A stretch of 64,000 nucleotides of DNA, from positions 26,228,001 to 26,292,000 of the forward strand of contig NW_024704742.1 in assembly GCF_018977255.1 (NCBI RefSeq), given 5' to 3'. Numbering within the stretch: the first letter of the stretch is position 1; every line of letters starts with the position of its first letter. Both the position numbers and the translations under genes were made by a program. The DNA comes from Callorhinchus milii (lineage: Eukaryota). This document shows, one piece after another, positions 11,026-60,377 of the stretch. The notes below the pieces were generated by a model. It was not told the origin of the DNA and ran no database searches. It worked only from the letters and a program-made list of their open reading frames with translations.

Positions 11026-11082
11026 ATAGTTGAAGTTAATGAAGTACATTCAGTAATGACCAATAGAAGAGACTTTCTTCAC

Positions 11083-13406: not shown

Positions 13407-13922
13407 CTGAAGGAGAAAGAGAAAATTTTGATTAGAAAGCATCAAAATGGCAGAGAGGGCACTACTCATCATGGGAGGTAGAACTGCATTTACACAAACA
13501 GCGTATTCAGCCAGGTGTGCAACAGAAGCCGCTCAAGACAATCTGTCGTTCGCAGCAAAACTCTAGTGCGCTACCCCCTCCCACCTTAGACATTTGATAG
13601 CCTTAACAACAACAACTTTAATTTATATAGCACACTTCCTGTGGGGTAGTGGAGAAATGAATTTACTGTAAAACGTCTGCAGGCCGCTGCCGCCGCTACC
13701 ATATGGCACTCACTGTAGCCCAGTCGCACATTTCAATTTTGTTGGTCAAGCATTCAAAAAAAACTGCTTTTCCCAGAAATCTGCCAACCCTCAGCAGCCT
13801 ACCACTAGTTTGCCTCTAGCTAGGGCATACCCTGTGTGCAAATACTTGTTCTCGTATGCATGTTTACACTAGACCCAATTTCCTCCGCTTGTGTGGGGAA
13901 ATGCACAGATTTAAACTGTCTG

Positions 13923-13944
13923 CACACACACACACACACACACA
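13923..13944. repeat. (CA)n microsatellite
   Basis: About 11 CA units, directly visible. Confidence 0.9.
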
Positions 13945-14589
13945 AAATAGCATTTTGCTCAGTATTTAGAAAACATCAGCAAAAGCACCACATTTATAAT
14001 TCCAGCTAAAGAGGGTAAACACTGAGCAGCAATAAGCTGTAGTCCCTGTAATGGAAGATAATTTATTTTCTATAAATTTAATAGATCCAATTAATTTTCT
14101 AATTACTGACATAGGATATTTAAAATTATGTTTTTTTCTCCCCAATTATCAATCCATGCTCTACAATATGGGCACGCAACAACAATAAAGAGAATCAGCT
14201 CAGCAGCCAAGAGTGTTTGGATGCTCTTTCCATCCTGGGACTTGTTATCTGTTTGTAACTCTAAAGCAAATGGTGCATTGATCGAAATTATTCCACAATG
14301 ACTGTGACTTCCTTGCTGCCTTAGCATTTAGATTTTAATGAGTTTTTTTCACATTTTGTTGAAATATAATCAATTCCAGTAACAAGGGATATTTCAGAAA
14401 ACCCAGACAATTGTAATATTGTATGGTACATATTTCACTCCAAATAATATTTCAGAAAATCCCAAACTGCACCCCCAGTGCATGGGCTACAACACCACAA
14501 ACCCATGCAGGCCTCATTCCATCCAGCCATTGCTTTGGCTCAGATACCAGAAGACTTACAGCAACTCTTCTTCCTATATATCCTTCCAG

Positions 14590-14985
14590 AGTCCAAAGAT
14601 TGAGGGTTCAAGTCTCATGTCGGAACTTTGAGCCCACACAGTCTAGGGTAACACTTCAGTGCAATACTGGAGGAGGGCTGCATTGTTGGAGGCGCGGTTC
14701 TTCAAATAAGACATTAAACCAAGGCCCCATCTGCCTGTTCAGCTGAACATCAAAGATCCCATGGGACTTCTCGAAAAGAGAAGAGTTTCTCATAGTGTCC
14801 TGGCTAACAAGCTCCAAACAAAATTAGTCACTCACTTCATAGCTGTTTGTCGGACACATTGGCTGCTGTATTTTCCAACAAAATACACAGTCACTATACT
14901 TAACAGTAAAATTCTTTGAAGTGCTTTGAGGCATCTCAATTATGTGATACAGGGCTATATCAAATGCAGGGATTATCATCATCAT
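14590..14985 (+). mobile_element. Deu-domain-type SINE (SacSINE1/AmnSINE-related), degenerate
   Basis: Central acacttcagtgcaatactgg...gctgcattgttggagg...gacattaaacc.aggcccc.tctgcc...aaagatcccatgg motif followed by the shared L2-like tail. Confidence 0.65.
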
Positions 14986-15205
14986 CGCTCAGTTTGACGT
15001 TGAGCAGTGAGTTTTCCAACTGAGCCAGCAGAAGGGGTATGTTTGTGCACTTCCATCAAAAGCTCATTTATTTTCATACTTGACAATGAATTGACAAATG
15101 TACCCTTGAGAATCAATAGAATAATTCATCTCTATAAATGTAAAAATGCTGCAAAGGAAAGGCTTGGATGGAATGAAATTGCTCATTAGCACACACTCAA
15201 GTTAC

Positions 15206-15625
15206 CTGTCGCACCACCTCACTAAGTTTCACAAGTAGCGTGTCTACCTCTGAGCCGCCATCAGTAAACTCGTGGAGCTGGCACACAGCTGTCACATACT
15301 GGTAACAGGTTTTATCGAAGCTAAGCTGCAGTTCCTCGTGCTCCCTAACAACTAGTTCATAATCCTCCTCCACCCTCTCCTTCTCCATCTCGGTTTGCAG
15401 CCTTCTCTTCTCTGCCTCCGCTAATTTCTGCTCTAAGGCTTTCATGCTCTCCAAAAGAGTATGAAAGTCTTTAGCCAGGCCTTGCCGCATGCTCTCGGCA
15501 TCCAAAGAGCTGATCCCGAGAGCCTGGTATTTAACCAGCACCCCTTCTTTCTTCCAAAGCTCAATTCTCAAAGCTTCAAGATTTTCAAGTAGATTTTGGT
15601 TTTTAGTCTTTAAGTTTTCAATGAC
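15206..15625 (-). CDS. C4orf50: C4orf50-like coiled-coil exon (VIENLKTKNQNLL...LSEVVRQ)
   Basis: tttatttttcag|GTC...CAG|gtaact, 420 nt, phase 0/0, inside ORF 15197..15664. Confidence 0.8.
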
Positions 15626-17002
15626 CTGAAAAATAAAATCATTAAACACAGAAAGAACTAGCAACTGGGGTCTACGAGCAAATAAAAATCATCTATTGGG
15701 AGATCTTAATTTGCTTTAAATTATGGGAAAAAAGCACAACTTTCTGCACAACAATCAAATGTGGGTGGTATTCAATGAGTCTGAGGTAATACAACATGAT
15801 CTTGCTCTGTGGGCTCTATCACAATCACTATCACAAGTGACACGATTGTCATATGAAATCCCATGGATTTTAAACATGAAACAAAACAATCCCAAGCATT
15901 AGTAATGGCTGCTTGGTAGATCACAGTGGTTGAGTCATTTCTGCCATGTGTAAAGTTGTTCAGTATTAGGTAAGCAATTTGGTCAAGTCTCCTTTCCAAA
16001 GGCTCAACTTTATGTAGCTTTCTATTTTGAGTGATTTTCAATGATCGATAAATAATTCAATGATTGATAGTTCATTAACTTAAACACAGGAAGATGCATG
16101 GAATCAACTGAAAAAACAATGGGCATTATCAAGCATTAACAGTTATTTGGTTAATACAAAGATGTTATCCATCATTCCTAACTTTAGAAACTTGGAAAAA
16201 AATCAACCACTAATCATAAATTGATTACTCAATATTGCTTTATTTAAACAAAATCTTATTGTAATTTAGGATATTGTTGTACTGAGAAGAAAATTGGCCT
16301 GAATAGGTTGCTGTGTAAGGGAGCAATGGCTATCTGAAATGAAATGAAATCCAGTCTATAAAATGCTTCATCCAGGATCAAACAAGAATGTTTCTGTATT
16401 ACTCATAACACTCTTTCTACAGCAATCTAATAGGTTCAAGAAGCAGCATTGTCAGAACTAAAAACTTCATTCAACCTCATTCATTCTCTTTTTTCTTCAG
16501 CAACTAGGTTATGAAGTTAGTTCAGGGCTGAAGGAAGTTGCTGGTTGTTCTGTTGTGTATTCTACTGTAAAGCACACTATGGACATCTTGTGGTAAGAAC
16601 CAAGTATTTCAACTGCACAAAGTATTTTTAGTCCCTAGATGCATAATAGCATTCTGGCATCAGAAATACAGTCATGGATTTAACATGATTTGACGTATAT
16701 GAGCACTGATACAGGTGCATTTTATTTACTGTACTAATAGAAATTACATAGCGGAATAACAGGAATGCTGCAGCTTCCAACCTTACTCCTTAGCTTCCAG
16801 ATTTCTAGCATCTGCAGTATTTGGTGTTTTGTTTACTCCTGAGCTGTTTTTTTCTAGCCACTAGATCTTAAATATGTGACGAGAAGACAAGTGTGTGAGT
16901 AAAACTATAACAAGAAACTGCAGAATTCTCTAAATTGCAGTTTGACATGATCAGAAATGGGAGTAAACATGGATAGTGTGTGGACGAAGCCTTTTATCTC
17001 AC

Positions 17003-17065
17003 CTTCTGAGCAATCTCTTGATCTAGCTGTACTTCACCTGTCCTGAAGTGTAATTCACTCTCGTT
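17003..17065 (-). CDS. C4orf50: C4orf50-like exon (NESELHFRTGEVQLDQEIAQK)
   Basis: gtttgttctctgttctag|AAC...AAG|gtgaga, 63 nt, phase 0/0. Confidence 0.7.
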
Positions 17066-17169
17066 CTAGAACAGAGAACAAACAGGGCTGCATGAGAGCA
17101 GGTAACATTTGTTTCTCTTGTGTCGTTAAAGTCATGAAAGGCAGTCCATATTGAAATATTGCTGTCAAG

Positions 17170-17770
17170 AATAATGGGTAAAAGCATCATCTGGGCCAGT
17201 ACTAGTCCGTACAAGACCCAAAGGTTGCAAGTTCAACTCCCAGTCTGTGCTGAGTTGTTGATCTTAGCCAGGGCAGCAGTTGAGGTGCTACAATTGGCCT
17301 CAGTGCCCAGGGCTAAGGAGAGGATGACCATTGATTGTTATCCAGAGACCATTAATGGACAGTGTGCACACACACGCACACACACACACACGTGTGTGAG
17401 TATATATACATTCAAGGCCTGAAATTCCACCTAATTTTAACCTGCAGGTGCAGTCTCCTTGAAAATTTAAGAATGATGGAAAATGCTTAAGTTCGGTCTT
17501 GATTTGGTTTTCCTCAGGGCTTAAAGTAGCCCAGCTTCCAAATTAATACCCAATTTAAGAAATTTCAAGTTTTGCACGATTTTACATTTTAGGACAAAAT
17601 GGTCTTACCAGTGAACACTAGGTAGAATTTCTGGTCTCGGTTGAGAACAGGGATGGGGCTCAATCCTGATGCCTCAAATCAGTCTAACAGCCTGAAGCAC
17701 TCAGTGTCAAGGCTCAGGCACGGTCACTCGAGTGAGGTGCTGGAGGGTGATCTGTGTCTTTGAAGCCATT
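17170..17770 (+). mobile_element. Second SINE-like family (tgtgctgagtt...ctacaattggcctcagtgccc...), interrupted by a MITE-like insert
   Basis: Related fragments at ~45140-45400 (-), ~47860-48070 (+) and ~61090-61230 (+). Confidence 0.5.
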
Positions 17771-17969
17771 GAAGAATAAAGAACTCAAAAAATGGGATAG
17801 AGAAGTCGAGAAAATTGGAGCAGAAAAATTGTTAAGAAGAAACAAAATAAGATGACGGGAGTCTTTTGAAATGATGATTCTTCAGCAAGGAAGACATGAC
17901 AAGCGGTGTTTTCTAACACTTAAGCTTATTTCCAATTATTGCCTCTTGCTGATGTCTGTGCCAGTGCTT

Positions 17970-18921
17970 ACAACAACAACAACAACTTGGATTTATATGG
18001 AGCCCTTCACGCTGGACAGCATCTCAGAGCGCTTCAAAATAATGGATACCGGGGCAGAGCCAGGGGGAGGGGGAGGAAGGTGATCAAAGGCCCTGTCGAA
18101 AAGAAAGGTCTTTAGCCGAGACCTGAAAATAGGAAGCGAGGGGATGAGGCGAAGGGAGTGAGGAAGGGAGTTCCAGAGCCTCGGGCCGTAGTAGCTGAAG
18201 ACAGGGCTGCCGATGGTGGAGCGGAGGATTCGGGGGACAAGGAGGAGGCCAGACCCGGTGGAGTGAAGAAAATGGGCACTTTTATGAGGAAAGAGGTCAA
18301 AGAGGTAGGGGAGTGCAGAGGAGTGGAGGGATTTGAAGACAAGAGTGAGGATTTTGATGTCGATCCTCTCTGGGACAGGCAGCCAGTGCAGTCTGGCAAG
18401 GACTGGGGTAATCGGGGAGCGGAGTTTGGTACAAGTAAGAATGCGGGCGGCAGAGTTTTGGATGACCTGGATTTTATGAATGGTAGTGGAGGGGAGACCG
18501 GCGAGGAGGGCATTTGAATAGTCCAGCCGAGAGGTGACAAAAGCATGGACCAGGGTTTCGGTGGCTTTTGGGGTGAGATATTGGCAGAGACGAGTGATGC
18601 ATTGGAGATGGAAGAAAACGGTGCTGGTGAGGGACCGGATGTGGGGGAGGAAGGATAATTGAGGGTTGAACCTGACGCCTATGTTGCGTATGGGTTCAGA
18701 GAGTTTTCGGGGAGGTCGGGTAGGTGGAGGAGGTGAGAACTGTGCAATTTAAGACGTTGACGAGAGCCAAAGGGTATGGTTTCCATCTTGTCAACATTTA
18801 GCTGAAGGAAATTCATGCTCATCCAGCTCTTGATGTCTGACAGGCAGGCTGACAGAACATCAGGGGAGTGGGGATCGCAAAGTGAGGTGGAAAAATAGAG
18901 TTGGGTGTCATCTGCATACAT
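17970..18921 (-). mobile_element. L2 LINE, 5'-truncated (RT C-terminus to 3' tail)
   Basis: MYADDTQLYFS...CLSDIKSWMSMNFLQLNVDKME, then LHWLPV/FKIL-type motifs, ending in a (TTG)n tail at ~17970. Confidence 0.9.
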
Positions 18922-19243
18922 GTGGAGTCCTGTAGCTCAGTGGTTAGAGCACTCGCTTTGCAAGTGGGAGACCTGAGTTCAATTCCAGACAGGGCGAAAC
19001 CTTGGGCAAGTTTCCTTACTCCACACAGAGCCTAATAATAATCCCTCCAAAACCAAAAACAATAATAAATTGGTCATTATCAATCTATGACTGTTTGTGG
19101 GACATTGCTGTGCGCGAGGCTGCCGCGTTCGCCCACAAATATACAGTCAATTCACCTTACAGTGTGTTCTGTGAAGCGCTTTGGGATGTCCTCCCGACGT
19201 GAAAAGCACTATATCAAATGCAAGGATTATTATTATTATTATT
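18922..19243 (+). mobile_element. tRNA-derived SINE, short variant
   Basis: A-box TAGCTCAGTGG, B-box GAGTTCAATTCC, tRNA-Ala-like TTGCAAG loop, tail ...ATCAAATGCAAGGATT(ATT)n. Confidence 0.9.
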
Positions 19244-19272
19244 ATGTGGAAGTGTACCCCATGTCTGCTTAC

Positions 19273-19989
19273 CAGTGCGCTTTCAAATGGTTGGCACCTC
19301 TCCTCCACTAAAAGTTTCAATTTTTCATTCTCTTCCAGCACTTCCCTCAGGTATTCTTCCCTCTCCTGTTTGTCTTCCAGCTCTGCTGTGAGCTTGCGTC
19401 TCTCCCTCTCCAGATCCTCCACCTTTTCTTGTAGGCTGCCCTCCGACAGCTTCAGCTGGTGGACCCACGAGCGCAAGTCCTCCAGCTTGTGGCCGAGGAA
19501 GTCCTCGTTGTCCTCCACCTGCTGGAAGCTGTGGCGGAGCTGCTCCTTCTCCTGGTTACCGGCCTCTTCCCTCTCCAGCAGCTTCTTCAGGTCTTGCTCA
19601 AGCATCTCAATGTGGTTCTTGACGTCGTCCACTCCATCCATCGGAAAGTTTCCTTCCTCAGGGAGTTCAGTGGCGGGCACTGAGGCACCTCCCCACGGGG
19701 AGCTCGCTTGCTCCTGCTCTGCGGCCTTTACTGTGGCCTTTTGCAGCTCAGTTCTCAGCACAGCATGGGTGGCTTTGCCCTCGATCATTCCTCGCTCCAG
19801 CTCGTAAACCCGGTTCTGCAGCCAGTGCTCGCGTTCCCTCAGCTCTGCCAGCTGCTGTCGCTGCTTCTGTTTGTGATGTTCAAAGTACTCGTACTGCTTC
19901 TTCACCTCCTCCTCTTTCATCCTCAGCTGGTTCTCTGAATGCCACCGATTCCTCCTCACCACCACATCTGCTCTCTCCTGTTCTGTAAG
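19273..19989 (-). CDS. C4orf50: C4orf50-like exon 3 (LTEQERAD...KLEDLRSWVHQLKLSEGSLQEKVEDLE...ESAL)
   Basis: catttctttgaag|CTT...CTG|gtaagc, 717 nt, phase 0/0. Resembles recalled human [27 protein letters not shown]. The acceptor could alternatively be at 19977. Confidence 0.85.
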
Positions 19990-20184
19990 CTTCAAAGAAA
20001 TGGTGAAGTTGTATATAATGTGGTCTAAAACGCGACGGTTTCAAGCAACCTTCCTGGTTTGGGGAAAGACGTTCCAAATATAGTATGAAGAGTTTTATCA
20101 GTACACAATAAAAGCCTACCACACTCCCCCAATGCACGTAGAGTCCGACTGTCACTCCTCTACCGTACACACAGAGTCTAACTG

Positions 20185-20610
20185 TCAGAGGATCGAGTTC
20201 AAATTCCTCGTCCTTGCTTTCAAAACCCTCCCTTGCTCCTCCCTACCTCTGTGACCTGCTAACCCCATACCGGCCTGTACGCTCCTTCCGCTTAATGGAC
20301 TCTGGCCTACTCCACATCGCCCGCCTGGCCTGCCCCACCATCGACGGTCGGGCCTTCAACCTTTCTGCCCCCACCCTTTGGAACTCCATCCCACAGTCCC
20401 CTTGCCTCAGCCCCTCCCTTGCCCCCTTCAAGGCCCGTCTCAAGACCTTCCTCTTCGACCGTGCTTTCGTTCACCCTTCTTCCATCCTCCCTGCCCTCCA
20501 CCCCTCCTGATGCCAACCACCAGCTCAGGTTCACCCCTTGACTGTCCAGCACTTTGGGACTTCCTCCCGATGTGAAAGCCACTATACAAATGTAATTTGT
20601 TGTTGTTGTT
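20185..20610 (+). mobile_element. L2 LINE 3' fragment
   Basis: RIEFKFLV...LAPPYLCDLL...GRAF...APTLWNSIP...FKARLKTFLF, followed by a (TTG)n tail. Confidence 0.85.
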
Positions 20611-21896
20611 GGCAGTGTCACATTCCCCTACTGTACACACAGTCTCACTGTCAGTGTCACATTTGCCTACAAAAGCAGAAACTATATATGAGAGTAATTA
20701 ATGTGAATCACCTTGAGAGAAGGGAATAGAGGGCTGTGGGAGAGAGTATTAAGATGGGTGGGGGCCTCACTTGGAGTACAAACACCAGCGCCGAATGGCC
20801 TATTTCCATGCTGGAACATTCTACATAATTCTATGCTGAGACGTTTATTGTGCTAAAGTTTTTTCCATGCCTGGTGGCGTCTTCAGTGCAAGTTGTAGTT
20901 ACACTGAACACACCACCAGGTGTCAATCCTGTGAATAAAATCAAATGTGAAGAGCCTTTTACCTGAGAATAAAATGGATTCCATGTCAGTTTTTTTTAAA
21001 AACTTTCAAAGCCTAGTTTGGTCTTGAACAGTTGTTTTAGTTCCTTTATTTTAAATACTTCACCCATTCCTTGCTTTGCTAGGGTAAGCTGATGCTTTTT
21101 TTTGTCAGTGAGATGATTTAGCCCAGCACAATGAGATAATACATACAGTGCACAATACGATTAGATTAGCTAAGTAGTGATAGTAACCCATCCAAGGTTT
21201 CATTAGTCAACACAAACCCGTCACCACTCCTCTGACACAAGCAACAACAACAACTTGCATTTATATAGCGCACCTCACGCAAGAATGCATCCCAGAATGC
21301 TTAAACACTCAGAAGCACTCATCTTAGCAGTACTTTACAAAAGGCTTCTAACATCATGCCTTGGGATGTCCTATCGACGTGAAAGCTATATAAATTATTG
21401 TTGTGTATTTAAATAGCAACATTCACTCACTTCATTCAAAGCGTTGAACTACAGACACCACTCAGGAGAGCTATAGATAAGAAATTAGTCGAGGTGTTTA
21501 AAAATAATCAATGCATTTAAGAAAGATGGATAGAAACTTGAGGAGTAAAAATATTAAAGGGTATGCTGTAGGTTATATTACATTAGCCCTGGTTTGGAAG
21601 TCGCGATGTTTCAGTATCACATAGAATCTATTAAGAAACAATGCATTTTTCACTCCCATCAATCTTTGGAGTGTTCATCGCATTAACTAACAGTGAAAAC
21701 TGTTTCTGAAGTAGGATAATGGTTAAAACAATGATTGGAAATGCATCAACTTGAAAACAAAGCTTTTGTCAGAATGGGACACCCATCGAGGACTGAGATA
21801 CCAACGCCTCTTTGCCATCTGGTCGAATGTCCGACCAAGATTACTTCAGGTGACTGTGATTTCAGGGAAGGAAACGATTGAAAATGAAGTTCTTAC

Positions 21897-22044
21897 CACA
21901 GCTGTCAGAGTTCGCTCTGAAACCTGCAGACCTCGGAGCTTTCCTGCCAGATGGGGCTCGCTGATCTCTGGCTGTAGGGACTTGGAATTCAGCTCATCTA
22001 TTTTACTCAATAGCTGCTTCTCAGACCTCTCCAAGTCTTGAATT
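21897..22044 (-). CDS. C4orf50: C4orf50-like exon 2 (IQDLERSEKQLLSKIDEL...SERTLTAV)
   Basis: gtttag|A ATT...GTG|gtaaga, 148 nt, phase 2 in / 0 out. Resembles recalled human RVQELELSERRLLRKVEQL. Confidence 0.85.
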
Positions 22045-22502
22045 CTAAACAGTTCAATAAAAGTTACCACAAGCATTCCAGCAAGATGGAGGAGAATGGT
22101 TTGATGAGGGATTCAGTAGCTCTCAGTGCTGAGCAAAGTTGTATACCTTTACACTGTGCCAACATTAATGGGGTCCAATTTTGTGTGATTCGCAAACTGG
22201 ATTTGTTGTGTTAATTGCGACCTGTGGTTTGCAATTCATGAATTTGACATTTCAACATTAATACATAACTTTGTATCCCAAACAACATCAAAATGACCAG
22301 CACTTTTGCGTTCTGTTTCTTTTTCTTTGCTGAAATAAGAGCCAGTCTCTGTGTGAAGAAATGCTCCTGACCTCAGTTCTAACTATCTTCCCCTTCATAA
22401 TAAATCCCTCTACCAGAGGGAAGAATCATTCACTATTTAACCTGTTGATTCCTTATTACCTCTAATTAGTTCAATCTTATTATAGATTACAATTTATATT
22501 TT

Positions 22503-22820
22503 TGTGGAATCCTGTAGCTCAGTGGTTAGACCCCTCGCCTCTCAAGCGAGAGACCTGGGTTCAATTCCCGGCAGGGCGAAACCTTGGGCTAGTTTCATTA
22601 CTCCACACGCCTAATAATAATCCCTCAGGAAAAAAAACAATAATAAATTGGTCACTTCAATCCATGACTGTTTGTGGAACACTGCTGTGCCCATTTGGCT
22701 GCCGTGTTTCGCCCACAAATATACAGTTAATTCATTTTACATTATATTGTGTGAAGCGTTTTGAGACGTCTTGAAGACGTGAAAAGCGCGATATCAAATG
22801 CAATATTATTATTATTATAT
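22503..22820 (+). mobile_element. tRNA-derived SINE, short variant
   Basis: Collinear with 18922-19243, including A/B boxes and tail. Confidence 0.9.
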
Positions 22821-23619
22821 AGCGCCAGTAGGACATCTTATTGACTTAATTTATAACCTTTCCCTTCAGAAGTGTTCCTGAACTGAACAGACAATCCCCA
22901 CAAAGCCAGTTTTTGTGAGGCATCTGAGGCTGGGTGCTTTTCCAAGGAACAGAAGTGAAAATTGAACAAGTTTTTTTTTACACTCTTTCATTTCGATTTT
23001 TCTCACTTTCATTCCTCTTCCCCAGGTATTACTGCTACCTGTAGCAGAAGCTCTCAATAGTTAAGAAAGGGCCCCTGTATGGTCGTAGTACCCTCTTCAT
23101 TCTACAGGTAATTTGGTTTTGCTGAAAATCCAGAATACATTAATTTGAACTATTTTCTAAAAAATTTTTTAAAAAATGATTGTAAGCAGGTTAGAAGCAA
23201 CAGGTTGTACAGCCTGGGTTTCACCTTAGTCTGTATGAATTTACATATGATGCTTGTGTGAACTCTTTAAATAACCCAGAAATATTCTATTAATGCTTCC
23301 CTTCATTTCAATGAATTATTGAGTGCAGCACAGTATGACCTACATGAACGTCTGTATTACCCCGGGTAAGTACTTGTGGGCAATCGGCAGGCATTCTCAA
23401 ACTGGTACTATTACCTGACATAAAACTGCTGGATGCTAATTGTTGTTCACTGTCTGGTATTTAGATCAATTACTATGCCTGGTGTCTGGTAATGGAAAAA
23501 AGAGTGATAAGAGACTTAATCTGATAATAAGATATTTGTCCCTTTCCTTCTAAGCGCACTTCTTGTAACCAGTCATAAATTGCCAAACGCTCCCCAAGTC
23601 AGTGTCTCTGTGTAATCAC

Positions 23620-24040
23620 ATTAATAATCCTTATTTTTAATATAATGCCTTTCATGTTTCAAAGTGCTTCACGGGAATTCACTGTAAAGTGAGGTGACTG
23701 TATTTTTTGTAGCAAGCCATGCAGCCAACTTGTGCATAGCAATGTCCCGCAAGCAGACATGAAGTCAATGATTAATTTTATCCGGGAATTATCAAAACGC
23801 CGAGACAAACTCCCTTCTCTTTTTGAGTCATGCCATACAATCTTTGACGTCCTCCTGCAAAGGCAGCTGGCACTTCGTTTCAACATCTCATCTGAAGGAC
23901 AGCACCTCAGGCAATGAATCAGACCCCCACAATGAACTAGAGTGTCAGCCTTAACTGTGAGTTCAAAGTCCCGACATGGGGCTTGAACGCACAACCCTCT
24001 GCCTCAAAGTCAAAAATGCTACCAATTGAGCCAGGCTGAC
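23620..24040 (-). mobile_element. Deu-domain-type SINE
   Basis: Reverse complement aligns with 14590-14985. Similar copies at ~33300-33620 (-), ~37860-38295 (-), ~48700-49050 (+), ~52700-53080 (+) and ~56750-57145 (-). Confidence 0.65.
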
Positions 24041-24142
24041 ATCTGACATTTAACAATCCAATAACATCTCAATTGCAACACGTGATTATGTTATACAGTT
24101 TGTGTCCATTTCGAAACAGATGAAAGTGTACAGTTTCTTTAC

Positions 24143-24414
24143 CTGTTTTGTAAAGCAGCCTCTGCTTTTATGAAGTTGCTGATAGTTTTTTTCAGCGTTC
24201 TCTCAGACTGCACGCACTCATCCAGCCTCTGCCTCAGGGTGTCAAGCTCGCTCTGAGTTGCCTGGCTTGCCCGTTCACTCTTTGCCTCCTCCAGGTCCTG
24301 CGAAGTCCAGGAGGTACCAATGGTCACATTAACATTTAGGACATCGAGCCCTTCCCTACTAGGTGAGGAAACGTGGTAACTGATCTCCTTCTCTCGGTCA
24401 ACAGAGGACTCCAT
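24143..24414 (-). CDS. C4orf50: C4orf50-like first coding exon (MESSVDREKEISYHVSSPSREGLDVLNVNVTIGTSWTSQDLEE...)
   Basis: ATG at 24414, donor AG|gtaaag, phase 2. Resembles the recalled human N-terminus [44 protein letters not shown]. Synteny downstream of JAKMIP1 also fits. Confidence 0.85.
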
Positions 24415-25231
24415 TTATAGAAAAGGGAAATTTGGGATCAAGAACACTGTGGAACGTGCTCCAGCTGGGAACTCTTCAGCCTCTAAATAAAGGCTTGCCT
24501 TTTAGGTTGGCTCAACGCAGGTTACTACTTTCTGCTGTCGACCTGCTGCTCAAATGACAGGCTCTTCGGTATAGTGGGAAAGATGCACTGACTTATTCAT
24601 GATTGGGAAGAGAAGTGCTGCCTGTTTTATTCAACAAACAGGTATGCAATATTAACAGACTCCAACAACGACACCACATGAAAGGTCCTAAACATTAGCA
24701 TTAGCCTTCCAGAACTCAACATAGCATAACGTTCCACATTAAATATTTAATGTCTAATTTTCATTCATCGCGTCGCTCTGAAATGTTTTTGTCGTTGAGG
24801 GGTAATCAAAACCTCAAGCTTGTTTCAGAGCTTAGGTTCACTCTGTCAGGCCTTACCTAACCTAGGGGCAAGGAGCACAGTTTTAATGTTACATTACAGG
24901 AGGAAATAATCTAGTATTGACCCTTGGGCCTTCGGCCACCCTCCTAGCCCCATGCCCTCCAAGCTCAGTAATCCCGACCCCCAGCCTGGGTCCAAATCCC
25001 TGACTGTCCAGCACCTTGGGACTTCCTCCCAACATGAAAGGCGCTATACAAGTGTAATGTTGTATTGTATTGGGCAACAGTTTGTTTTGAATGTCCATAC
25101 AAAAAATACGCAGAAGCCCATTGACCCAAGACAATATTTCCAAGCAATCGCAGCAAACACTATTTAAATTTCAATCTTTTGGTTTTACTGCATGGTTTAA
25201 CATTACTATATTCATATTAATCAATATAATA

Positions 25232-25513
25232 AACCTTAGGCAAGTTTCCTTACTCCTCACGTCTCTGTTTGCCTAGCAGTAAGTAGGAACCCGGTTGTTA
25301 GTCAATCGGCAGATCGCTTTCTGTGAGTAATCGCTTTCCGGGGGTCATTCAATCCACAACTGTTTGTGGGATATTGCTGAGCCTAATTCGCTGCTGCATT
25401 TCACCCACAAAATATATAGTCACTACACTTTACAGTATATTCTGTGAAGTGCTTTGTGATATCTCAACGACGTGATGAAGTGCGATATCAAATGCAAGTA
25501 TTATTATTCATTA
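25232..25513 (+). mobile_element. tRNA-derived SINE, long variant, head missing
   Basis: aaccttaggcaagtttccttactcc...ctagcagtaagtaggaacccggttgttagtc...tail. Confidence 0.8.
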
Positions 25514-26014
25514 TTATGTTATATATATTAATTAATGTAATATTAATCCTTCAATTTGATGTTGTAACATCAAAATATCTCAAAGCATTTAATTGGGGAT
25601 TTCTATCTACTGTGGTATTTTGCAAGCAAATGTAGCAGCCTATTTGAACACAGGAATGTCCTGCAAACAGGCATGAAGTGAATGATCAAATAATCTGGGG
25701 GATTGTTGGCCAGTAGAAAAACAACTCTTCTTTATTTGAATAGTGCCATTGAATCTTTAACACCCATCTGAACTTTTCAAGAGGGATATTGACAGATATA
25801 CGGAGAATACAAGCTTGAAGGTGTGTGGGAATAAGACAGGGAGGGCAGTGGGACTGAATGACCACCTTGCTCTGAGAGCTGGTGCAGACTCAATGAGCTG
25901 AATGGCCTTCTTCTGTGCAGTAAATTTCTATGATGCTATAATTCTGTGATAACTGATAGCATTTAGATCATGTTTATGTTTAACAAAAATAAAGATACTG
26001 CATTTTGCGCATAC

Positions 26015-28363
26015 CTTTTTGAAACCCTGAATCCTTGTCTGCAACTCTAACCACTTTTCTTGCCACTTCTTTACAGCTGTCTCTTTGTTTTGCAACTCGT
26101 GCTTTAATGAAGCAGAGAGATGCCGCTCCTCTTGAATCATTGTCTCTAAAGATGTGATCAACTGAGATTTCTGCGACAGGTGAGTTTCCAACACTCTCCT
26201 CTCTTGTTCACTGGCGGTTTTGACTTTTTTCACTTCACGCTCTCTGCCGTCCAGTATTTCCTCGAGTTGTTTCCTCAGGTGCTTGTTGCTTTCCTCATAA
26301 GCCTCCAACTCTTTTGTTCTCTTCTTCAAATGGGTTTCTAGGCTTGCATTTCCTGCCTGGCAAACGGATTCTTTAAACACTAGCTCTTCGATCTTCTTGT
26401 TAAGTTCTGCCATTAAATGTTTTTCTTCCTTCTGCGAGAAGTCAAGTTCATCAAATTCATGAGATTTATTTTCAAGTTGCACCTCGAGGTTGCTTTTGGC
26501 TGCTTCCAACTCATTTATCCTGTCTTTCTGACATTGTAGTTCATTTCTCATTTCCCGTTCGCTTTTCTCAAGGTCACAGCCCTTGACTTTCCATTGGTGT
26601 AGCTCCTCGCTCAGTCGACGCTGCTTGAGACCTAGCTCTTCATTACGCTCTGCCAGCCTTCTCTGAGTCTCTGCCATCTCTTTCAGCAAAGACACCTGCT
26701 TGACAATTCTCACTTGCAGTTTCTCCTCGGTCTCTTCTTTCATTGTCAGCAGCTTTTCCATTCGAGCTATCTTGTCCTGTAGGACCTTAGACTCGCCTTC
26801 CTGCATATCTTGCAGTAACTCTTCCATCATCTTGTTCCTCTCCAGGAGCTTCCTTTCAGACTCTTTACGTTGTCTAAGTTGCTCTTGCAGTTCACCAATC
26901 TCTTCGTTCCGACTTTCAATCTCATCTGTAAGTTTTTCCAATTCTCTGCTTTTTTCGCTCAATTCCATTTCAAACCTGCTGGTCATCTTTACAATGGATC
27001 CTGCCTTGACCAGTTCAGCCTCTGTCATCCTGCTTAGCTCTTCCTCAAGTTTCATCTTCTCCTTGAGAATCTCTGGAGGAATCTTTTGGCTTTCATGAAG
27101 CAGGTGTTCTGCATCCTTGCCACTCTTCTTGAGTTCTTCAATCGCCTGCATGCTTCTTTCTAAAGTTTCGCCTTTCTCCTCAAGCCGTTTGCGAAGCCTC
27201 TTAATTTTAGTATTTAGCTTACCCTCTACTCTTTTAAACTGCTCCCTTAATTGTTGCTCAAAGTGTTCCCAATCTCGGACAGTTTGCTCTAGATCTGAAA
27301 ATTGCTTTTTTATTTTCACTTCTCTATGTATACCCTCCTCCAAGTCAATCTTTAATTGGTCAATCTTAGCTTCAAGACAGTTTCTGGTTTCTTCCATTTC
27401 CCTTGTCTTCCTCGACAAGTCTTTATTAATCATCTCAAGCTGGGCATAAGCTTCATCCCTCTCCTTGATCTCATCGAGGAGCATCTTCATTTGTTCTTGG
27501 TTCTCTTCCTCCAAATCTTCCCTCTCTTTTTGCATCTTCTCCACTTGACTGTACCTCTCCTCCAGTTTCATTTCAATGTCTTCCTTCTGCTTTGTTAACT
27601 GGTCCAATTTGGCACAACGCAGGTTAAGCAGCCTCTCGTTCTCCTTCTTCTGCAAAAGCTGGCTTTCCAGTTCTTTTGATGCTTCTATCAGTTCCTTTTC
27701 ACTCATTTCTTTAATCCTTAAAAGTCCTTCTAGATTCTTGACTCTTTGAAGTAGCTCTGGTTTGGCAGTGCCACCATTACCTTCAGTCTCCTCCTCACTG
27801 CTGTGAGAATCAAGTGACTCCAGTTCCCTCACAGAGGCCAGTTTGTCTTTCAGGGCATCATAATCAAAATGTACTTGCTGATATGACCGTTCCATTTCAC
27901 TGAGCTTTTTCCTCAAGCTCCTCGACTCTTCAGTCCTTTCTTCCACTATAACCTCACATCCCCTCAATTTCTCTTCCAAAATCTTGCGATCATGAAGATC
28001 TTGATTTGCTTGGAATTTGGTTCCTCTTAAAGATTGGAAATTCTGGAATTGAAAAATATGGTCTTCAAGTTCTGCTGTTCTGTCATTCCTCAGCTTGTTT
28101 TCTGTATTTACTTCTATCGGTTGCGCTTGTAAAGATTTGATATTTAAATTTGCAGTGATTTTTTCTGGAAAAGACGCTAAGTCTTTTTTTCTCTTTTGTT
28201 GTGTGGGATTCTGCTCTGCTCCGAGTTTCACCCCTGTCACATGCAGTTCCTGTGACTTTACCCTACTCTTTGTACCAGTAGCTTGTTTTTTTCCCTGGTC
28301 GCTTTGCTTTTTTGTGAGTTTGTCCTCCATCATTTCTGAATCACAGACATTTGGGATTTGCAT
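26015..28363 (-). CDS. Large single-exon coiled-coil ORF (783 codons to donor; 811 aa if unspliced), uncharacterised
   Basis: Uninterrupted 2.4-kb E/K/L/Q-rich frame with heptad and 21-aa periodicity. Phase-0 donor AAG|gtatgc at 26015. The unspliced stop (25928-25930) falls inside a CR1 tail. Confidence 0.8.
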
Positions 28364-29407
28364 CTAATTTATTGGTTGAAGTCAATTGTATATTGGAATC
28401 ATCCTCCACGTCAGTGAGTAGATGCTTTGGAAAAATGTGACTGGCATCCTCCAGCTTGAATTCAGATGTGTGAGTATGTATATTTTCTGCTCGTGTTCAT
28501 TTTTGTCTTTAGCGGAAGCTATGAATTTAGTCAATGCCTCCTCCTCAATGTAATCATTTTGCTTTGTACACTTTGAAATTTGCTCTGTCAGCTCAGCTTT
28601 ATCTTTAGTTATCTCTCTTGCAGCCTAGTGAGAAGTAAGGGGTGGAAAATCACAAGTAAAAGGTCACAAGACAGGTCCGAAAGAAAAAGCCCCTTTGGGT
28701 CACTTGATCTTACCATTCCCACCCACCTTTCCATCATCCCGCTGCAGCATTCAAGCAGTGTCTTACAGGGAGTTCATGTCTTCACAGATTACAAACCTCT
28801 AAGTAATAATAATAAAATAATAATCCTTATATTGGGTATAGCCCCTCTCAAGTCAGGAGGACAATTCAAAGCACTTCACAGGGTGTACCATAATGTGCAG
28901 TGATTGTGTGTTTTGTGGGCAAAAGCGACAGCCAATCTGTGTGCAGCATTGTCTCACAAAAGGCCAAGAAGTGAGTGACCACTTTTTATTTGGGAGGATT
29001 GTTGGCCAGGAAACTGGGAGAAATTCCCTTTTCGCTTAAGTAAGGATCACAAACCTCTACAATACATGAGCTTGTTTAGTTGACCAGATTAAATCAGACT
29101 AGGGGCATGTGCCAGTCTAACTTATTGTACAGTCCCAGCACTCAGCAGCAATATTTTACCAAGTTGTGTCCTTAGTCATGTACTGTGTGGACCGTTTGAA
29201 AGCAGGGTTAGTTGAATGCAATAAGAGTGCACAGTGGTGCAAACCAATTTGGTGAGTCAGCCAAACAGAGCTTATTAAGGCACCAGACTGATGCACAGTA
29301 CATGGCTCACTTTCAGTGCATACAACATATATGAGCTGTACAGCCCCTGGTAGATTCTTCTTCAGCACCAGTCACAGTTGTTTAATAGACGAGAAGCTTG
29401 CACTTAC

Positions 29408-29480
29408 CTGCGTCTCAGGAGATGGTCTCTCAGGGCCAGAGAATAAAGGCTAAGGAAAAAAACAGGAACAAAAACAAAAA
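29408..29480 (-). CDS. JAKMIP1: JAKMIP1 last coding exon: tail-anchor TM FLFLFLFFSLAFILWP* (stop 29430-29432) plus 22 nt UTR to a donor
   Basis: cttttag|TTT...CCC TGA...CAG|gtaagt. Matches the recalled JAKMIP1 C-terminus. Confidence 0.95.
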
Positions 29481-29765
29481 CTAAAAGTATAAAATAAAAC
29501 ATAACATAAAGGAGACAAACAAAATAAGCAGGAGAAGGGAAGAGAGAGAGAAAAACAAGTTTAAAGAGGATAAAAATGTTAGTACAAAGTGAAAGTTTGT
29601 GCTACTGTAATGATTTTACTGATTTGAATACTAAAAGGAAGTACTGTACTGCAATAAGTTCAGTTGCTTATTGCAATTGTACCAGTGATGAACATTTTAA
29701 AGCATGCAAATGATTTTGTAATGCTCACAGCTGAGAGCTTACATTGGCACAGTCAAACATCTCAC

Positions 29766-29831
29766 CTTTTCTTCTATCTCTTTGATTTGTCTTTTCTGAA
29801 ATTCTATTTTGTCTTCTAGCTCTCGAATTCT
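29766..29831 (-). CDS. JAKMIP1: JAKMIP1 exon (RIRELEDKIEFQKRQIKEIEEK)
   Basis: ttgcag|AGA...AAG|gtgag, 66 nt. EDKxEFQKR is the JAKMIP1-type variant. Confidence 0.95.
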
Positions 29832-31773
29832 CTGCAAAGCAAAGAGGCCACAAACTGTTAAACACTAAGCAAAGGTGGGCATCAAAATGATCGTCTGTTC
29901 ATTTTCAAGCATCCACAATTTGAAAAAAGATTATAATATTGGTAGATTTTTCATCCTTTTCTCAGCACAGCCGAGTAGTCAGCGATTTTCTTAATGGAAG
30001 TGCTAACCAGCAAACACGGTTGATCTTTCTACCTGAATAACGGTAGATGCAGAGCTATTCACACAACAAGCGGTACAGCCATTTGGTACTTATTAAAAGA
30101 ACTGCACTTGACTACTGTTAAATAGGCTTAGGGAATTGTAAATCCTTGTCCTTTTATAAAACTTTGAAAAAGCACACATTTCAATATTGACCGGTTATTT
30201 AGGATTAACAAATTGTACCTGCTCCCAAGAAAACGTGCATTAATACGGAGCTACAACATGCACACGAGAGCCACAGAGAAAAGCAGATACAGCAAGGCAA
30301 CGCTGGTGAGCGATTGGGCTATGTTTCGTACTGTGCTTAAAAATGGAGATTAAAAGTCTGCTTGATAATCCGTTTTGAGGACAAAGGCCAATGTTCCCAG
30401 CAGCTGCTTAGTTACTGGCTATTCGAGTGTTAAAACACAAACAGATTGCCCCTGGGATTGATGCTCGTTCTGTTTTTTGTTTCATTTTCTCATTTCAGAG
30501 AAATGCATCCTGACCTTGAGAAAAAAATCAGTACAAACCCATGACGCTTTATACTGTAAATTGTCCTGAGAAGCACTCTCGATGTTGTATGGTTTTAAAA
30601 CAATAAAAATACTAATTTGTAAGAGATAAACATGATACTATTTTTCTAAAAGGTGTGTATTGGGAAAGGGTGCAAAATAATAATAATAATTGCATTTGAT
30701 ATAGGGCTTTATTACATTGTCACGACATCTTAAAGCACTTCACCGAATATACTCTAAAATGAATTGACTGCATTTTTGTGATTGCAGGCAAATGACTTGC
30801 TTTCAGCTTTCCATGCACTAAATCAAATGCTGAGTTAGTCATAATGATATATTCTCCAGGCAGACGGGGGATAGTGCAGTTAGATTCAAGAAGGCATTGG
30901 AGGGATTTTTTGAGCATGAAGAGCGATACGTGAGACCAGCTGAGTGAACTGTTAATACTCTTTTTCTCTGGTCTTACACATTCCCATCACAGGTCAGTGA
31001 TTTTCGGTAAGCAGTCGGAAAGGCAAGAAAAGTGAGGGTTAAAAAAGAATAATCCTAATAATCCTTGCATTTGATATAGCACTTTTCACGTCGGGAGGAC
31101 GTCCCAAAGCGCTTCACAGAACACACTGTAGAGTGAATTGACTGTATATTTGTGGGCGAATCTGCTGAGAGTTGATTGAGTGCAGTGTTGTAGCTGTGAC
31201 AGTGAGTGGTAGAACACAGGTTTCTGCTTGTGATTCCCTAACTTGCCAACTAGACTCAGCTGTGCCATTGTCGACTGGGGTTTCGAGGAAGTCAGGCCTG
31301 CCCCACAAAGAACCTGAAAGGCTCAGATCCCACATTGCTATCACATAATAATCATCCTGCCATTAATATAGCACCTTTCTCATCAAGAGGATGATTCACA
31401 AGATTTATTGTAAGGCGCAGTGACTGTGTGTTTTGTGGGCCAATCTGTGCACAGCAAGATACCACAACACAAAGTGATTGACCAATTTTATTTAGGCCGA
31501 TGAGGAAGTGACATTTTCTATGGATTTTCCTGGCCTGTGAAGAAGTTAAAATTTGTATTACAAATGAAGATGGTAAAACAGCACGGTTGCATGTGGTTGT
31601 GAAAATGTGCATACACTTTCCTGGATAATCATGCAGACAAAATCAGTTGGGATGTTTACAAGTGAGTTAGATCGGTGATAATATGGGTATCAAATATTGA
31701 GAAAAGGTAGGGAAATGGGACTAAAGGAATCAGTAAGTATTGATGCATTTAAGCAGAAGATAGATAGACATAG

Positions 31774-32083
31774 TAATAATAATCCTTGCATTTGATATAG
31801 CGCTTTTCACGTCGGGAGGACGTCCCAAAGTGCTTCACAGAACACACTGTAAAGTGAATTGACTGTATATTTGTGGGCGAACGCGGCAGCCAATTGCGCA
31901 CAGCAATGTCCCACAAACAGTCGTGGATTGAAGATGACCAATTTATTATTGTTTTTTTTTGAGGGATTATTATTAGGCGTGTGGAGTAAGGAAACTTGCC
32001 CAAGGTTTCGCCCTACCTGGTATTGAACTCAGGTCTCTCACTTGCAAAGCAAGTGCTCTAACCACTGAGCTACAGGACTCCAC
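31774..32083 (-). mobile_element. tRNA-derived SINE, short variant
   Basis: Full reverse-complement copy with A/B boxes and tail. Confidence 0.9.
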
Positions 32084-39597: not shown

Positions 39598-39693
39598 TGT
39601 AGAACATGTGCCTCTTATTTACTTCCGATATCCAATACCTTGCTTTTCTTTCAACAGCAGAAAGATTTTTCTGCATCAAGTTACAGCAATAAA

Positions 39694-40004
39694 TGTGGAG
39701 TCCCGTAGCTCAGTGGTTAGAAACTTGTCTTGCAAGTGAGAGACCTGGATTTGATTCCTGGCAGGGCAAAACCTTGGGCAAGTTTCTTTATTTCACATGC
39801 CTGATAATAATCCCTCAAGAAAAAAAAACAATAATAAATTGGTCACTTCAATCCACGACTGTTTGTGGGACACTGCTGTGCACAATTGGCTGCCGCGTTT
39901 TGTCCACAAATATACAGTCAATTCACTTTACAGCATATTCTGTGAAGCGCTTTGAGATGTCGAGAAGACGTGAAAAGTGCTATATCAAATGCAAGGATTA
40001 TTAT
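39694..40004 (+). mobile_element. tRNA-derived SINE, short variant
   Basis: tggagtcccgtagctcagtggttag...gcaaggattatta. Confidence 0.9.

Positions 40005-60167: not shown

Positions 60168-60377
<210 letters not shown>

What the first reader, a model, noticed from the sequence alone, without database searches (positions are those of the whole stretch)
26015..28363. Orphan 2.35-kb coiled-coil exon bridging JAKMIP1 and C4orf50: candidate giant fusion or polycistronic locus
Seen: a 783-codon intact frame sits ~1 kb after the JAKMIP1 stop exon and ~1.6 kb before the C4orf50 ATG, on the same strand, and ends in a phase-0 donor. The upstream JAKMIP1 donor (29766) is also phase 0. Recalled and unverified: human C4orf50 starts at the MEPT...SFSY exon and some human models share exons with JAKMIP1, but I recall no counterpart of this exon. 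Inference: the locus may make (a) an N-terminally extended C4orf50 of ~2,270 aa or (b), by skipping the TM exon, a soluble ~3,100-aa JAKMIP1-coiled-coil-C4orf50 protein. This could be an ancestral architecture lost or reduced in mammals.
Basis: partly seen in the sequence, partly recalled or inferred. Interest (0 to 1): 0.75.

Follow-up and report, generated by a model that had tools for sequence, protein, structure and literature searches.

The report
First coding exon of shark C4orf50
The long open frame is not an orphan: it is the already-annotated first coding exon of the elephant-shark C4orf50 gene, it encodes a long helical rod that mammalian gene models lack, and it shares an exon with the neighbouring JAKMIP1 gene without being fused to it as protein.

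Summary
The 783-codon frame (26015-28363, minus strand) is real and far beyond chance. It is not an orphan. It is the first coding exon of the Callorhinchus milii C4orf50 homologue and is already in RefSeq (XP_007895530.1, 2566 aa; XP_042196607.1, 1481 aa). Predicted orthologues exist from lamprey to salamander.

RNA contigs show the physical exon is 28624-26015. Its first 240 nt are the C-terminal tail of all four RefSeq JAKMIP1 isoforms (stop at 28384-28382). The conserved C4orf50 start (ATG 28333/28330) follows 48 nt later.

Stops close all three frames between 28624 and 28333, so no JAKMIP1-C4orf50 fusion protein can be read. A 2-nt insertion in all three RNA runs puts ATG 28363 out of frame.

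The donor at 26015 joins an internal acceptor at 24297. This bypasses a conserved 39-codon alternative start (ATG 24414), which is the one bear C4orf50 models use. Bear models lack both this exon and the C-terminal Ig_RIMBP2/SH3 part.

The exon encodes a roughly 75-aa disordered head and about 700 aa of helical rod, modelled as a parallel dimer.

Whether single transcripts carry both JAKMIP1 and C4orf50 remains open.

The parts
26015..28624 (-). Physical exon (2,610 nt): shared JAKMIP1 tail, short spacer and first coding exon of the C4orf50 homologue
   Evidence: In 3 of 3 RNA runs, contigs cover 26014-28623 (X1 and X2 as one contig each; X3 as two, 26014-26646 and 26688-28623) and carry 30 unplaced letters beyond 28623. 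The DNA contig (X9) runs on across 25902-29013. Acceptor ...cactag|G at 28624.
28382..28624 (-). 80 codons plus TGA: C-terminal tail of RefSeq JAKMIP1 isoforms X1-X4
   Evidence: 100% match to the last 80 residues of P0054-P0057. It was the only hit among 27 candidates, so no conservation outside this species is shown.
28368..28373 (-). AATAAA hexamer between the JAKMIP1-tail stop and the C4orf50 start; possible poly(A) signal, untested
   Evidence: Such hexamers are common (219 in the window), so the site alone proves nothing.
28361..28363 (-). ATG used as the start in the RefSeq models; probably not the true start
   Evidence: P0002 and P0027 begin here. A 2-nt insertion at 28341/28342 in all 3 RNA runs puts this ATG in a frame that stops after 11 codons.
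28341..28342 (-). Site of a 2-nt (TG on the minus strand) length difference between the RNA runs and the window/DNA run
   Evidence: table 4: present in X1, X2 and X3 contigs, absent from X9.
28328..28333 (-). ATG ATG pair: conserved translation start of the long isoform
   Evidence: 21 of 22 elasmobranch long models begin at the aligned Met(s). It is the first in-frame ATG in the insertion allele.
26015..28327 (-). Body of the coding exon: disordered head (about residues 1-74) and five helical segments
   Evidence: AF2 model: helices 75-112, 117-187, 200-418, 430-638 and 647-782. 55-64% identity to elasmobranch models.
26013..26014 (-). GT of the phase-0 donor
   Evidence: RNA contigs end here in 3 of 3 runs.
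24298..24414 (-). 39-codon alternative N-terminus (short isoform, ATG 24414); it is bypassed when exon 1 is used
   Evidence: 69% identical to the start of Pristiophorus P0028, 61% to P0029, 53% to bear C4orf50 (E 5e-7).
24143..24297 (-). Exon 2, acceptor CAG|G at 24297
   Evidence: RNA contigs X1 record 1 and X3 record 16; sequence; RefSeq join K783|D784.
21897..22044 (-). Exon 3
   Evidence: Same spliced contigs; tblastn.
19273..19989 (-). Exon 4
   Evidence: Spliced contig X1 record 1; contigs in X2 and X3.
29766..29832 (-). JAKMIP1 coding exon (RIRELEDK...EIEEK) with a phase-0 donor at 29766
29430..29480 (-). JAKMIP1 hydrophobic-tail exon with its stop codon; the likely ordinary end of long JAKMIP1
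   Evidence: Tail of UniRef model P0060; coordinates. Low-depth RNA contigs at 29001-29387 and an AATAAA at 28985-28990 fit its 3' UTR.
29408..29449 (-). 42-nt cassette inside the tail exon, read in another frame, that links 29766 to 28624 in RefSeq X1, X3 and X4

Best explanation
The frame is the first coding exon of the long isoform of the elephant-shark C4orf50 homologue (DUF4527 family). That protein is about 2,560 aa: a long N-terminal helical rod, then DUF4527, then an Ig_RIMBP2 domain and an SH3 domain; a further SH3 inside the DUF4527 stretch was detected in shark orthologues but not in the C. milii model. Translation most likely starts at the ATG pair 28333/28330 inside the exon, and the exon is spliced 26015->24297 to exon 2. 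An alternative, conserved short start (ATG 24414, 39 codons) sits in the 5' extension of exon 2, so long and short isoforms arise by alternative first coding exons. Mammalian models use only the short one. The exon encodes a disordered head of about 75 aa and about 700 aa of alpha-helix in five segments, which probably pair as a parallel in-register dimer. Inferred role: a dimerising, spacing or tethering arm for the C-terminal SH3/Ig scaffold. The physical exon begins 261 nt upstream of the RefSeq ATG (28363), at 28624, where it is spliced to an upstream exon. Those 261 nt hold the alternative C-terminus and stop of RefSeq JAKMIP1 isoforms. The two genes therefore share an exon at the RNA level, but stop codons separate them at the protein level. 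Shown here: the frame, its conservation, the exon ends, the stops and the helical prediction. Inferred: start-codon choice, dimerisation in the cell, and function.
For: RefSeq models of this species contain the exon at 100% (P0002) and 99.7% (P0027, named C4orf50 homolog, 2566 aa). Of 19 longer hits, 18 combine the exon with DUF4527, most with SH3 and Ig_RIMBP2. A whole-library HMMER search found 8 representatives at E<=0.001; those named include Mobula, paddlefish, gar, coelacanth, Pleurodeles, tarpon and a lamprey. In 3 of 3 RNA runs from two studies, contigs stop exactly at 26014/26015 and 28623/28624, and spliced contigs join exons 2-3-4 and further exons. The DNA-run contigs listed cover genomic stretches without such joins, and one runs straight across the exon and both of its ends. 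21 of 22 elasmobranch long models start at the Met aligned to 28333/28330. The 2-nt insertion in all 3 RNA runs removes ATG 28363 from the frame. All three frames between 28624 and 28333 contain stops. The short N-terminus is conserved to bears at 53%, E 5e-7. AF2: mean pLDDT 74, five helices covering residues 75-782. Two copies of residues 430-638: ipSAE 0.33 against a best control of 0.00. This mark was reached by 21 of 30 proteins solved as pairs of one chain and 0 of 23 solved as single chains (microbes), and by 17 of 29 and 0 of 30 on eukaryotes. The runs agree in at least 49% of contacts, partner pLDDT is at least 72, and contacts are in register with 3-4 spacing.
Against: The runs are RNA only by the tool's guess; their spliced contigs are the argument that they are RNA. 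The joins 26015->24297 and x->28624 are read from contig ends with 30 unplaced letters, not from a listed joint row, because the tables were cut. Contigs cannot show that one molecule carries all the parts. Of the 8 within-species differences listed in the exon, 6 change the residue and 2 do not, which looks relaxed rather than constrained. The sample is small and 22 further differences were not shown. The window itself has a 1-nt frameshift at about 9251 that splits the gene in the current annotation. The dimer pass is marginal, and coiled coils may pass by likeness to solved structures. No Pfam family and no solved structure match the exon.
Confidence: 0.9

Rival explanations
1. One transcription unit. 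Long-isoform C4orf50 mRNAs are JAKMIP1 read-through transcripts that skip the JAKMIP1 tail-anchor exon and its poly(A) site. They carry a complete JAKMIP1 frame (with the 80-aa alternative tail) followed 48 nt later by the C4orf50 frame, making a natural bicistronic mRNA. The second frame would be translated by reinitiation or internal entry, or these RNAs would serve only JAKMIP1.
For: All four RefSeq JAKMIP1 isoforms end in the tail encoded at 28624-28385, joined from 29766 or 29408. RNA contigs in 3 of 3 runs start with a splice at 28624 and continue unbroken to the 26015 donor. In human breast tumours JAKMIP1 is the transcript best correlated with C4orf50, r = 0.642 (passages of PMC13657826).
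Against: Contigs merge overlapping transcripts, so continuity does not show single molecules (tool caveat). The upstream partner of 28624 was not shown. Reinitiation after a frame of about 900 codons is not expected from established knowledge of eukaryotic translation. The tail has no hit outside this species (1 of 27 candidates), so the X1-X4 models may be prediction by-products. An AATAAA at 28368-28373 could end the JAKMIP1 RNAs before the C4orf50 start. The leader holds four short upstream ORFs.
Confidence: 0.2
2. Giant fusion protein: JAKMIP1 exons are spliced in frame to this exon, giving a soluble JAKMIP1-coiled-coil-C4orf50 protein of about 3,100 aa.
For: The 29766 donor and a hypothetical acceptor at 28363 are both phase 0. 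In the window's allele the JAKMIP1 tail frame and the main frame are the same frame, separated by only two stops, TGA 28384-28382 and TAG 28366-28364.
Against: RNA contigs pass through 28363 without a splice in 3 of 3 runs. Stops lie in all three frames between 28624 and 28333, and the 2-nt insertion allele shifts the frames apart. 0 of 19 longer hits and 0 of 8 whole-library representatives carry a JAKMIP domain with this exon. The sequence before 28363 is a poor acceptor with little pyrimidine tract.
Confidence: 0.02
3. Separate gene. In this individual the exon belongs to a truncated 1481-aa 'myosin-7-like' gene, as in the current RefSeq, because the 1-nt deletion at about 9251 is real and ends the protein before DUF4527.
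For: The window lacks one C relative to the older model, and the frame stops 9 codons later. The current RefSeq splits the locus into XP_042196607.1 and XP_007895530.2.
Against: The older model of the same species reads through, and the restored frame matches the elasmobranch orthologues. A single-base assembly error or a rare allele is more likely.
Confidence: 0.1

Closest known systems
RefSeq XP_007895530.1, 'uncharacterized protein C4orf50 homolog' [Callorhinchus milii], 2566 aa (and XP_042196607.1 'myosin-7-like', 1481 aa)
   Same: It contains this exon from ATG 28363 to the 26015 donor (99.7% and 100% identity) and joins it to the same downstream exons.
   Different: The models start at ATG 28363, whereas the conserved start is 28333/28330. 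They do not show the 261-nt leader shared with JAKMIP1. The current model is cut short by the frameshift at about 9251.
Mammalian C4orf50 (bear models, 1414 aa; Pfam DUF4527 PF15030)
   Same: Orthologous from exon 2 onward: bear residue 41 aligns to C. milii residue 783. Same short N-terminus as the 24414 start. DUF4527 is present.
   Different: No counterpart of exon 1 (best local matches have E >= 1). The protein ends with DUF4527 and lacks Ig_RIMBP2 and the last SH3.
JAKMIP1 (JAKMIP_CC3, PF16034)
   Same: Upstream neighbour on the same strand; also a coiled-coil protein. Its RefSeq isoforms X1-X4 end inside the same physical exon.
   Different: No sequence relationship to the exon was found. 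The reading frames are separated by stops.
RIM-binding proteins (RIMBP1/TSPOAP1, RIMBP2, RIMBP3)
   Same: The full C4orf50 homologue has an Ig_RIMBP2 domain (E 1e-13) followed by an SH3. The first SH3, inside DUF4527, was detected in shark orthologues P0003 and P0028, not in the C. milii model P0027. RIM-BPs also combine SH3 and Fn3/Ig modules with N-terminal coiled coils (recalled, not tested).
   Different: Only one Ig_RIMBP2 and at most two SH3 domains were detected. DUF4527 and the exon-1 rod have no RIM-BP match. These domains lie outside the finding and partly outside the window.

Membership tests
C4orf50 / DUF4527 (PF15030) gene | The exon is part of a gene product that carries DUF4527 | tested here: met
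   P0027 (same species) holds the exon and DUF4527 at E 4.2e-27. 18 of 19 longer hits carry PF15030.
C4orf50 / DUF4527 (PF15030) gene | RNA joins the exon to the downstream C4orf50 exons | tested here: met
   RNA contigs end at 26014/5 and 24296/7 with 30-letter overhangs in 3 of 3 runs. One contig joins exons 2, 3, 4 and five further pieces. The exon 1-exon 2 joint itself was not among the listed rows.
C4orf50 / DUF4527 (PF15030) gene | Position next to JAKMIP1 on the same strand | tested here: met
   JAKMIP_CC3 hits at 60171-60377 and 62408-62614. RefSeq JAKMIP1 maps to 62614...28385.
JAKMIP1 fusion protein | An open frame from JAKMIP1 exons into the exon | tested here: not met
   Stops in all three frames between 28624 and 28333; no splice at 28363 in 3 of 3 RNA runs.
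JAKMIP1 fusion protein | Orthologous models that combine a JAKMIP domain with this exon | tested here: not met
   0 of 19 longer hits carry PF16034.
RIM-BP-like scaffold | Ig_RIMBP2 domain flanked by SH3 domains in the same protein | tested here: inconclusive
   Ig_RIMBP2 and SH3 are found in P0027, P0003, P0020 and P0028. In the C. milii model P0027 only the SH3 after Ig_RIMBP2 was detected; both flanking SH3s together appear only in orthologue P0003 (SH3_2, 2 stretches). The full set of three SH3 and three Fn3 of RIM-BPs (recalled) was not seen.
Dimeric coiled coil | Long uninterrupted alpha-helices | tested here: met
   AF2 helices 200-418, 430-638 and 647-782 at pLDDT mostly 70-93. Composition: E 18%, K 12.5%, L 12.5% and 7 prolines, 4 of them before residue 83.
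Dimeric coiled coil | Self-association in register | tested here: inconclusive
   Model only: ipSAE 0.33 against a best control of 0.00, just at the 0.32 mark, with in-register contacts. No experiment.

The most novel reading that the evidence does not exclude
JAKMIP1 and the long form of C4orf50 are one ancient transcription unit. A splice choice at the JAKMIP1 tail-anchor exon would decide between two outcomes. One is a membrane-anchored JAKMIP1 mRNA that ends at about 28970. The other is a read-through RNA that encodes a soluble JAKMIP1 with an alternative tail and, 48 nt further on, the 2,560-aa RIM-BP-like C4orf50 protein. That would be a vertebrate bicistronic or tightly coupled gene pair, and the human JAKMIP1/C4orf50 co-expression would be its remnant.
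Probability: 0.15. Interest if true: 0.6.

Novelty: already known. Interest (0 to 1): 0.3.

Why it matters
C4orf50 is a human gene with no known function; papers call it poorly characterised. The shark locus shows that the vertebrate ancestor probably had a protein of about 2,500 aa: a 700-aa dimerising rod at the front and an SH3/Ig_RIMBP2/SH3 scaffold at the back. By their gene models, mammals keep only the middle. That gives a testable functional lead, a RIM-BP-like scaffold. It fits the reported co-expression of human C4orf50 with JAKMIP1, UNC13A, SYT4 and SCG3. For the scan itself the result is mostly corrective: the 'orphan exon' is annotated, and the proposed fusion protein cannot be read from the sequence. 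The exon shared with JAKMIP1 is the one point worth a wet-lab look.

Tried and rejected
- **Pfam on the exon and neighbouring ORFs:** nothing above the cut-offs.
- **phmmer against PDB sequences:** 0 hits at E <= 0.01.
- **Earlier findings of this scan:** nothing; one search was an error because the words were met in no finding.
- **The look-up of sequencing runs:** no RNA holder listed. The runs used are RNA only by guess.
- **Upstream partner of the 28624 acceptor:** Read laying did not show it. The joint and loose-end tables were cut (2069 and 4127 rows not shown), and the 30 overhanging letters are not printed.
- **Cover over the JAKMIP1 exon:** the bin 29576-30242, which holds exon 29832-29766, has no cover in X1. 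I draw nothing from this.
- **Frameshift at about 9251:** it lay outside the laid stretch, so RNA and DNA reads could not be checked there.
- **Conservation of the JAKMIP1 80-aa tail:** one word-index search found only this species.
- **Exon-1 counterpart in amniote genomes:** not possible, because no tool searches vertebrate genomes. Absence rests on predicted proteins only.
- **Literature:** 'C4orf50' gives 35 papers, 25 listed, none on gene structure by title or abstract. 'JAKMIP1' plus 'C4orf50' gives 2 papers. 'DUF4527' gives 0. 'C4orf50' plus 'coiled-coil' gives 1 paper, a GWAS methods paper. Among RIM-BP terms plus C4orf50, 10 of 36 papers were listed and none holds C4orf50.
- **Readings rejected:** the fusion-protein reading (see rivals), and a splice acceptor at 28363.
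Full report
**Observation**

The minus strand holds a stop-free run of 811 codons (25928-28363), the longest in the window; the next longest is 376. From the window's base composition the expected number of such runs over all six frames is about 1.5e-18. The frame opens with an ATG at 28363, immediately after a TAG. After 783 codons it reaches AAG|GTATGC, a phase-0 donor whose last exon base is 26015.

**Identity**

A word-index search restricted to longer proteins returned 19 hits.
- The best hit (100% identity, 100% coverage) is 'myosin-7-like [Callorhinchus milii]', 1481 aa, so the window is elephant shark.
- Its 90% cluster also holds XP_007895530.1, 'uncharacterized protein C4orf50 homolog', 2566 aa. 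This older model contains the exon at 99.7% identity and runs on through DUF4527, Ig_RIMBP2 and SH3.
- The other 18 hits are predicted proteins of 1838-2967 aa: 15 from 13 elasmobranch species (55-64% identity, 57-99% coverage), plus sturgeon, paddlefish and gar. All 18 carry DUF4527 and none carries a JAKMIP domain.

A whole-library HMMER search of 1.84 billion representatives found only 8 proteins at E <= 0.001. It added a coelacanth fragment (43%), a Pleurodeles protein (35%), a tarpon protein (34%) and a lamprey protein (29%, E 1e-18).

The exon is therefore neither orphan nor shark-specific. By predicted proteins it goes back to the vertebrate stem. No Pfam family and no solved structure match it.

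**Exon ends and splicing**

I laid the contigs of three probable RNA runs (two studies) and one DNA-sized run on 10900-30899.
- In all three RNA runs, contigs cover 26014-28623. They carry 30 unplaced letters beyond 28623.
- The DNA contig runs straight through 25902-29013.
- One RNA contig (X1 record 1) joins 24296-24143, 22044-21897, 19989-19273, 13405-13319, 11492-11363, 11222-11081 and more. Another (X3 record 16) joins 24296-24143 to 22044-21897, with 30 and 29 unplaced letters at its ends.
- These spliced pieces are the argument that the runs are RNA. The one-base offsets (26014, 24296, 28623) arise because the G after each donor equals the first base of the next exon.

The transcribed exon is therefore 28624-26015. 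It has a good acceptor (...cactag|G) and is spliced to some upstream exon. Its donor joins CAG|G at 24297, as in the RefSeq join K783|D784.

Two caveats apply. These joints are inferred from contig ends and gene models, because the joint table was cut. Contigs also cannot show that one molecule carries all the parts.

**Relation to JAKMIP1**

JAKMIP_CC3 hits at 60171-60377 and 62408-62614 place JAKMIP1 upstream on the same strand.

The 80 codons from 28624 to the TGA at 28384-28382 are, at 100% identity, the C-terminus of all four RefSeq JAKMIP1 isoforms of this species.
- X2 joins 29766->28624.
- X1, X3 and X4 insert a 42-nt cassette (29449-29408).

A UniRef model instead ends in a hydrophobic tail, exon 29480 onward with its stop at 29432-29430. 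Low-depth RNA contigs at 29001-29387 and an AATAAA at 28985-28990 fit its 3' UTR. That this hydrophobic tail is the family's usual membrane anchor is my recollection, not a test made here.

One physical exon holds the end of a JAKMIP1 frame and, 48 nt later, the start of C4orf50. The tail had no hit outside this species (1 of 27 candidates), which is weak evidence that it is not conserved.

**No fusion protein**

Between 28624 and 28333 all three frames contain stops. In the window's allele the JAKMIP1 tail and the main frame share a frame but are separated by TGA 28384-28382 and TAG 28366-28364. RNA contigs pass 28363 without a splice in 3 of 3 runs.

**Start codon**

All three RNA runs carry two extra letters at 28341/28342 (a third TG). 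These are absent from the window and from the DNA run (table 4). With them, the ATG at 28363 opens an 11-codon frame whose TGA overlaps the ATG pair at 28333/28330.

21 of 22 elasmobranch long models start at the Met aligned to that pair. The second ATG has A at -3 and G at +4. The real start is therefore most likely 28333/28330, giving 773 codons in this exon. The 261-nt leader holds four short upstream ORFs.

**Two N-termini**

The 5' extension of exon 2 (24414-24298) encodes 39 residues starting with Met. They are 69% identical to the start of a Pristiophorus 'C4orf50-like' protein, 61% to an unnamed 1605-aa protein, and 53% (E 5e-7) to the start of bear C4orf50. Splicing from exon 1 bypasses it. 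The locus thus encodes a long and a short isoform through alternative first coding exons. I saw no RNA contig proving use of the short start in the three runs.

**Mammals**

Bear C4orf50 (1414 aa) aligns to the shark protein from bear residue 41 to shark residue 783 onward. It has no significant match to exon 1 and ends exactly with DUF4527, without Ig_RIMBP2 and the last SH3. Most teleost models retrieved (about 1,450-2,000 aa) also start after exon 1.

This fits 'ancestral architecture reduced in mammals'. It rests on predicted proteins only, because vertebrate genomes could not be searched.

**What the exon encodes**

- Composition: E 18%, K 12.5%, L 12.5%; 7 prolines, 4 of them before residue 83.
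- AF2 with a 20-sequence alignment (mean pLDDT 74.1, pTM 0.22) gives a disordered segment 1-74 and helices 75-112, 117-187, 200-418, 430-638 and 647-782.
- Conservation is lowest in residues 1-120 and highest in 241-300 and 481-600. Ten columns are invariant from lamprey to shark, all between residues 538 and 679.
- Two copies of residues 430-638 were modelled as a parallel in-register pair with 3-4 spaced contacts. The score was 0.33 against a best control of 0.00.
  - This mark was reached by 21 of 30 proteins solved as pairs of one chain and 0 of 23 solved as single chains (microbes). On eukaryotes the counts are 17 of 29 and 0 of 30.
  - The runs agree in at least 49% of contacts and the partner's pLDDT is at least 72.
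  - The pass is marginal and may reflect likeness to solved coiled coils.

I infer a dimerising rod that spaces or tethers the C-terminal scaffold, which carries an Ig_RIMBP2 domain and SH3 (a first SH3 inside DUF4527 was detected in orthologues only).

In passages of one paper, human C4orf50 expression correlates best with JAKMIP1 (r = 0.642) and with exocytosis genes such as UNC13A, SYT4 and SCG3 (PMC13657826). This is in line with, but does not show, a RIM-BP-like role and shared regulation with JAKMIP1.

**Evidence against my reading**

Of the 8 listed within-species differences in the exon, 6 change the residue. That looks relaxed, though the deep conservation argues for constraint. The window also carries a one-base deletion at about 9251 that breaks the frame relative to the older model and to the orthologues. 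If that deletion is real, this individual's allele would be truncated.

**Verdict**

The exon is real, conserved and already annotated. What remains open and mildly interesting is whether JAKMIP1 and long C4orf50 are made from the same RNA molecules.

Noticed in passing
window 9245-9255 (minus strand): The window lacks one C relative to the older RefSeq model of the same species. The frame of the large C4orf50 exon (9805-8193) breaks here, and the current annotation splits the gene into a 1481-aa and a 1080-aa protein. The restored frame matches the elasmobranch orthologues, so an assembly error or a rare allele is likely.
   Followed up: partly
window 15197-15688 (minus strand): A 163-codon open frame, absent from the C. 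milii and elasmobranch models retrieved here, is 43% identical to residues 407-535 of an unnamed 1605-aa C4orf50-type protein and 39% to paddlefish residues 885-1007. Low-depth RNA contigs lie on it (15322-15658 and 15141-15375). It is probably an unannotated or alternative coding exon.
   Followed up: partly
window 28341-28342: All three RNA runs (two studies) have two extra letters here. The window, the older RefSeq protein model and the DNA-sized run do not. A TG-repeat length polymorphism is the simplest reading. RNA and DNA from one animal would be needed to exclude anything else.
   Followed up: partly
window 28368-28373 and 28343-28349 (minus strand): An AATAAA lies 9 nt after the JAKMIP1-tail stop and about 20 nt before a TG-rich run, an arrangement that resembles a poly(A) site just upstream of the C4orf50 start. 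The hexamer is common in the window, and RNA 3' ends could not be seen in contigs.
   Followed up: no
window 22466-22774 (+), 30720-30986 (-), 31749-32012 (-), 39693-40088 (+), 47635-48111 (-): Several ORF translations share a motif of the type ...IQSIHFTVYSVK.FE.S.... This points to a dispersed repeat family in the introns. The very high contig depths at 18.9-19.6 kb, 22.2-22.9 kb and 24.9-25.6 kb also indicate repeats.
   Followed up: no
window 17993-18748 (minus strand): A 251-codon open frame in a G+C-rich stretch (52% against about 40%), with overlapping frames on both strands and high contig depth in all runs. It is probably a transposable-element remnant inside a C4orf50 intron.
   Followed up: no
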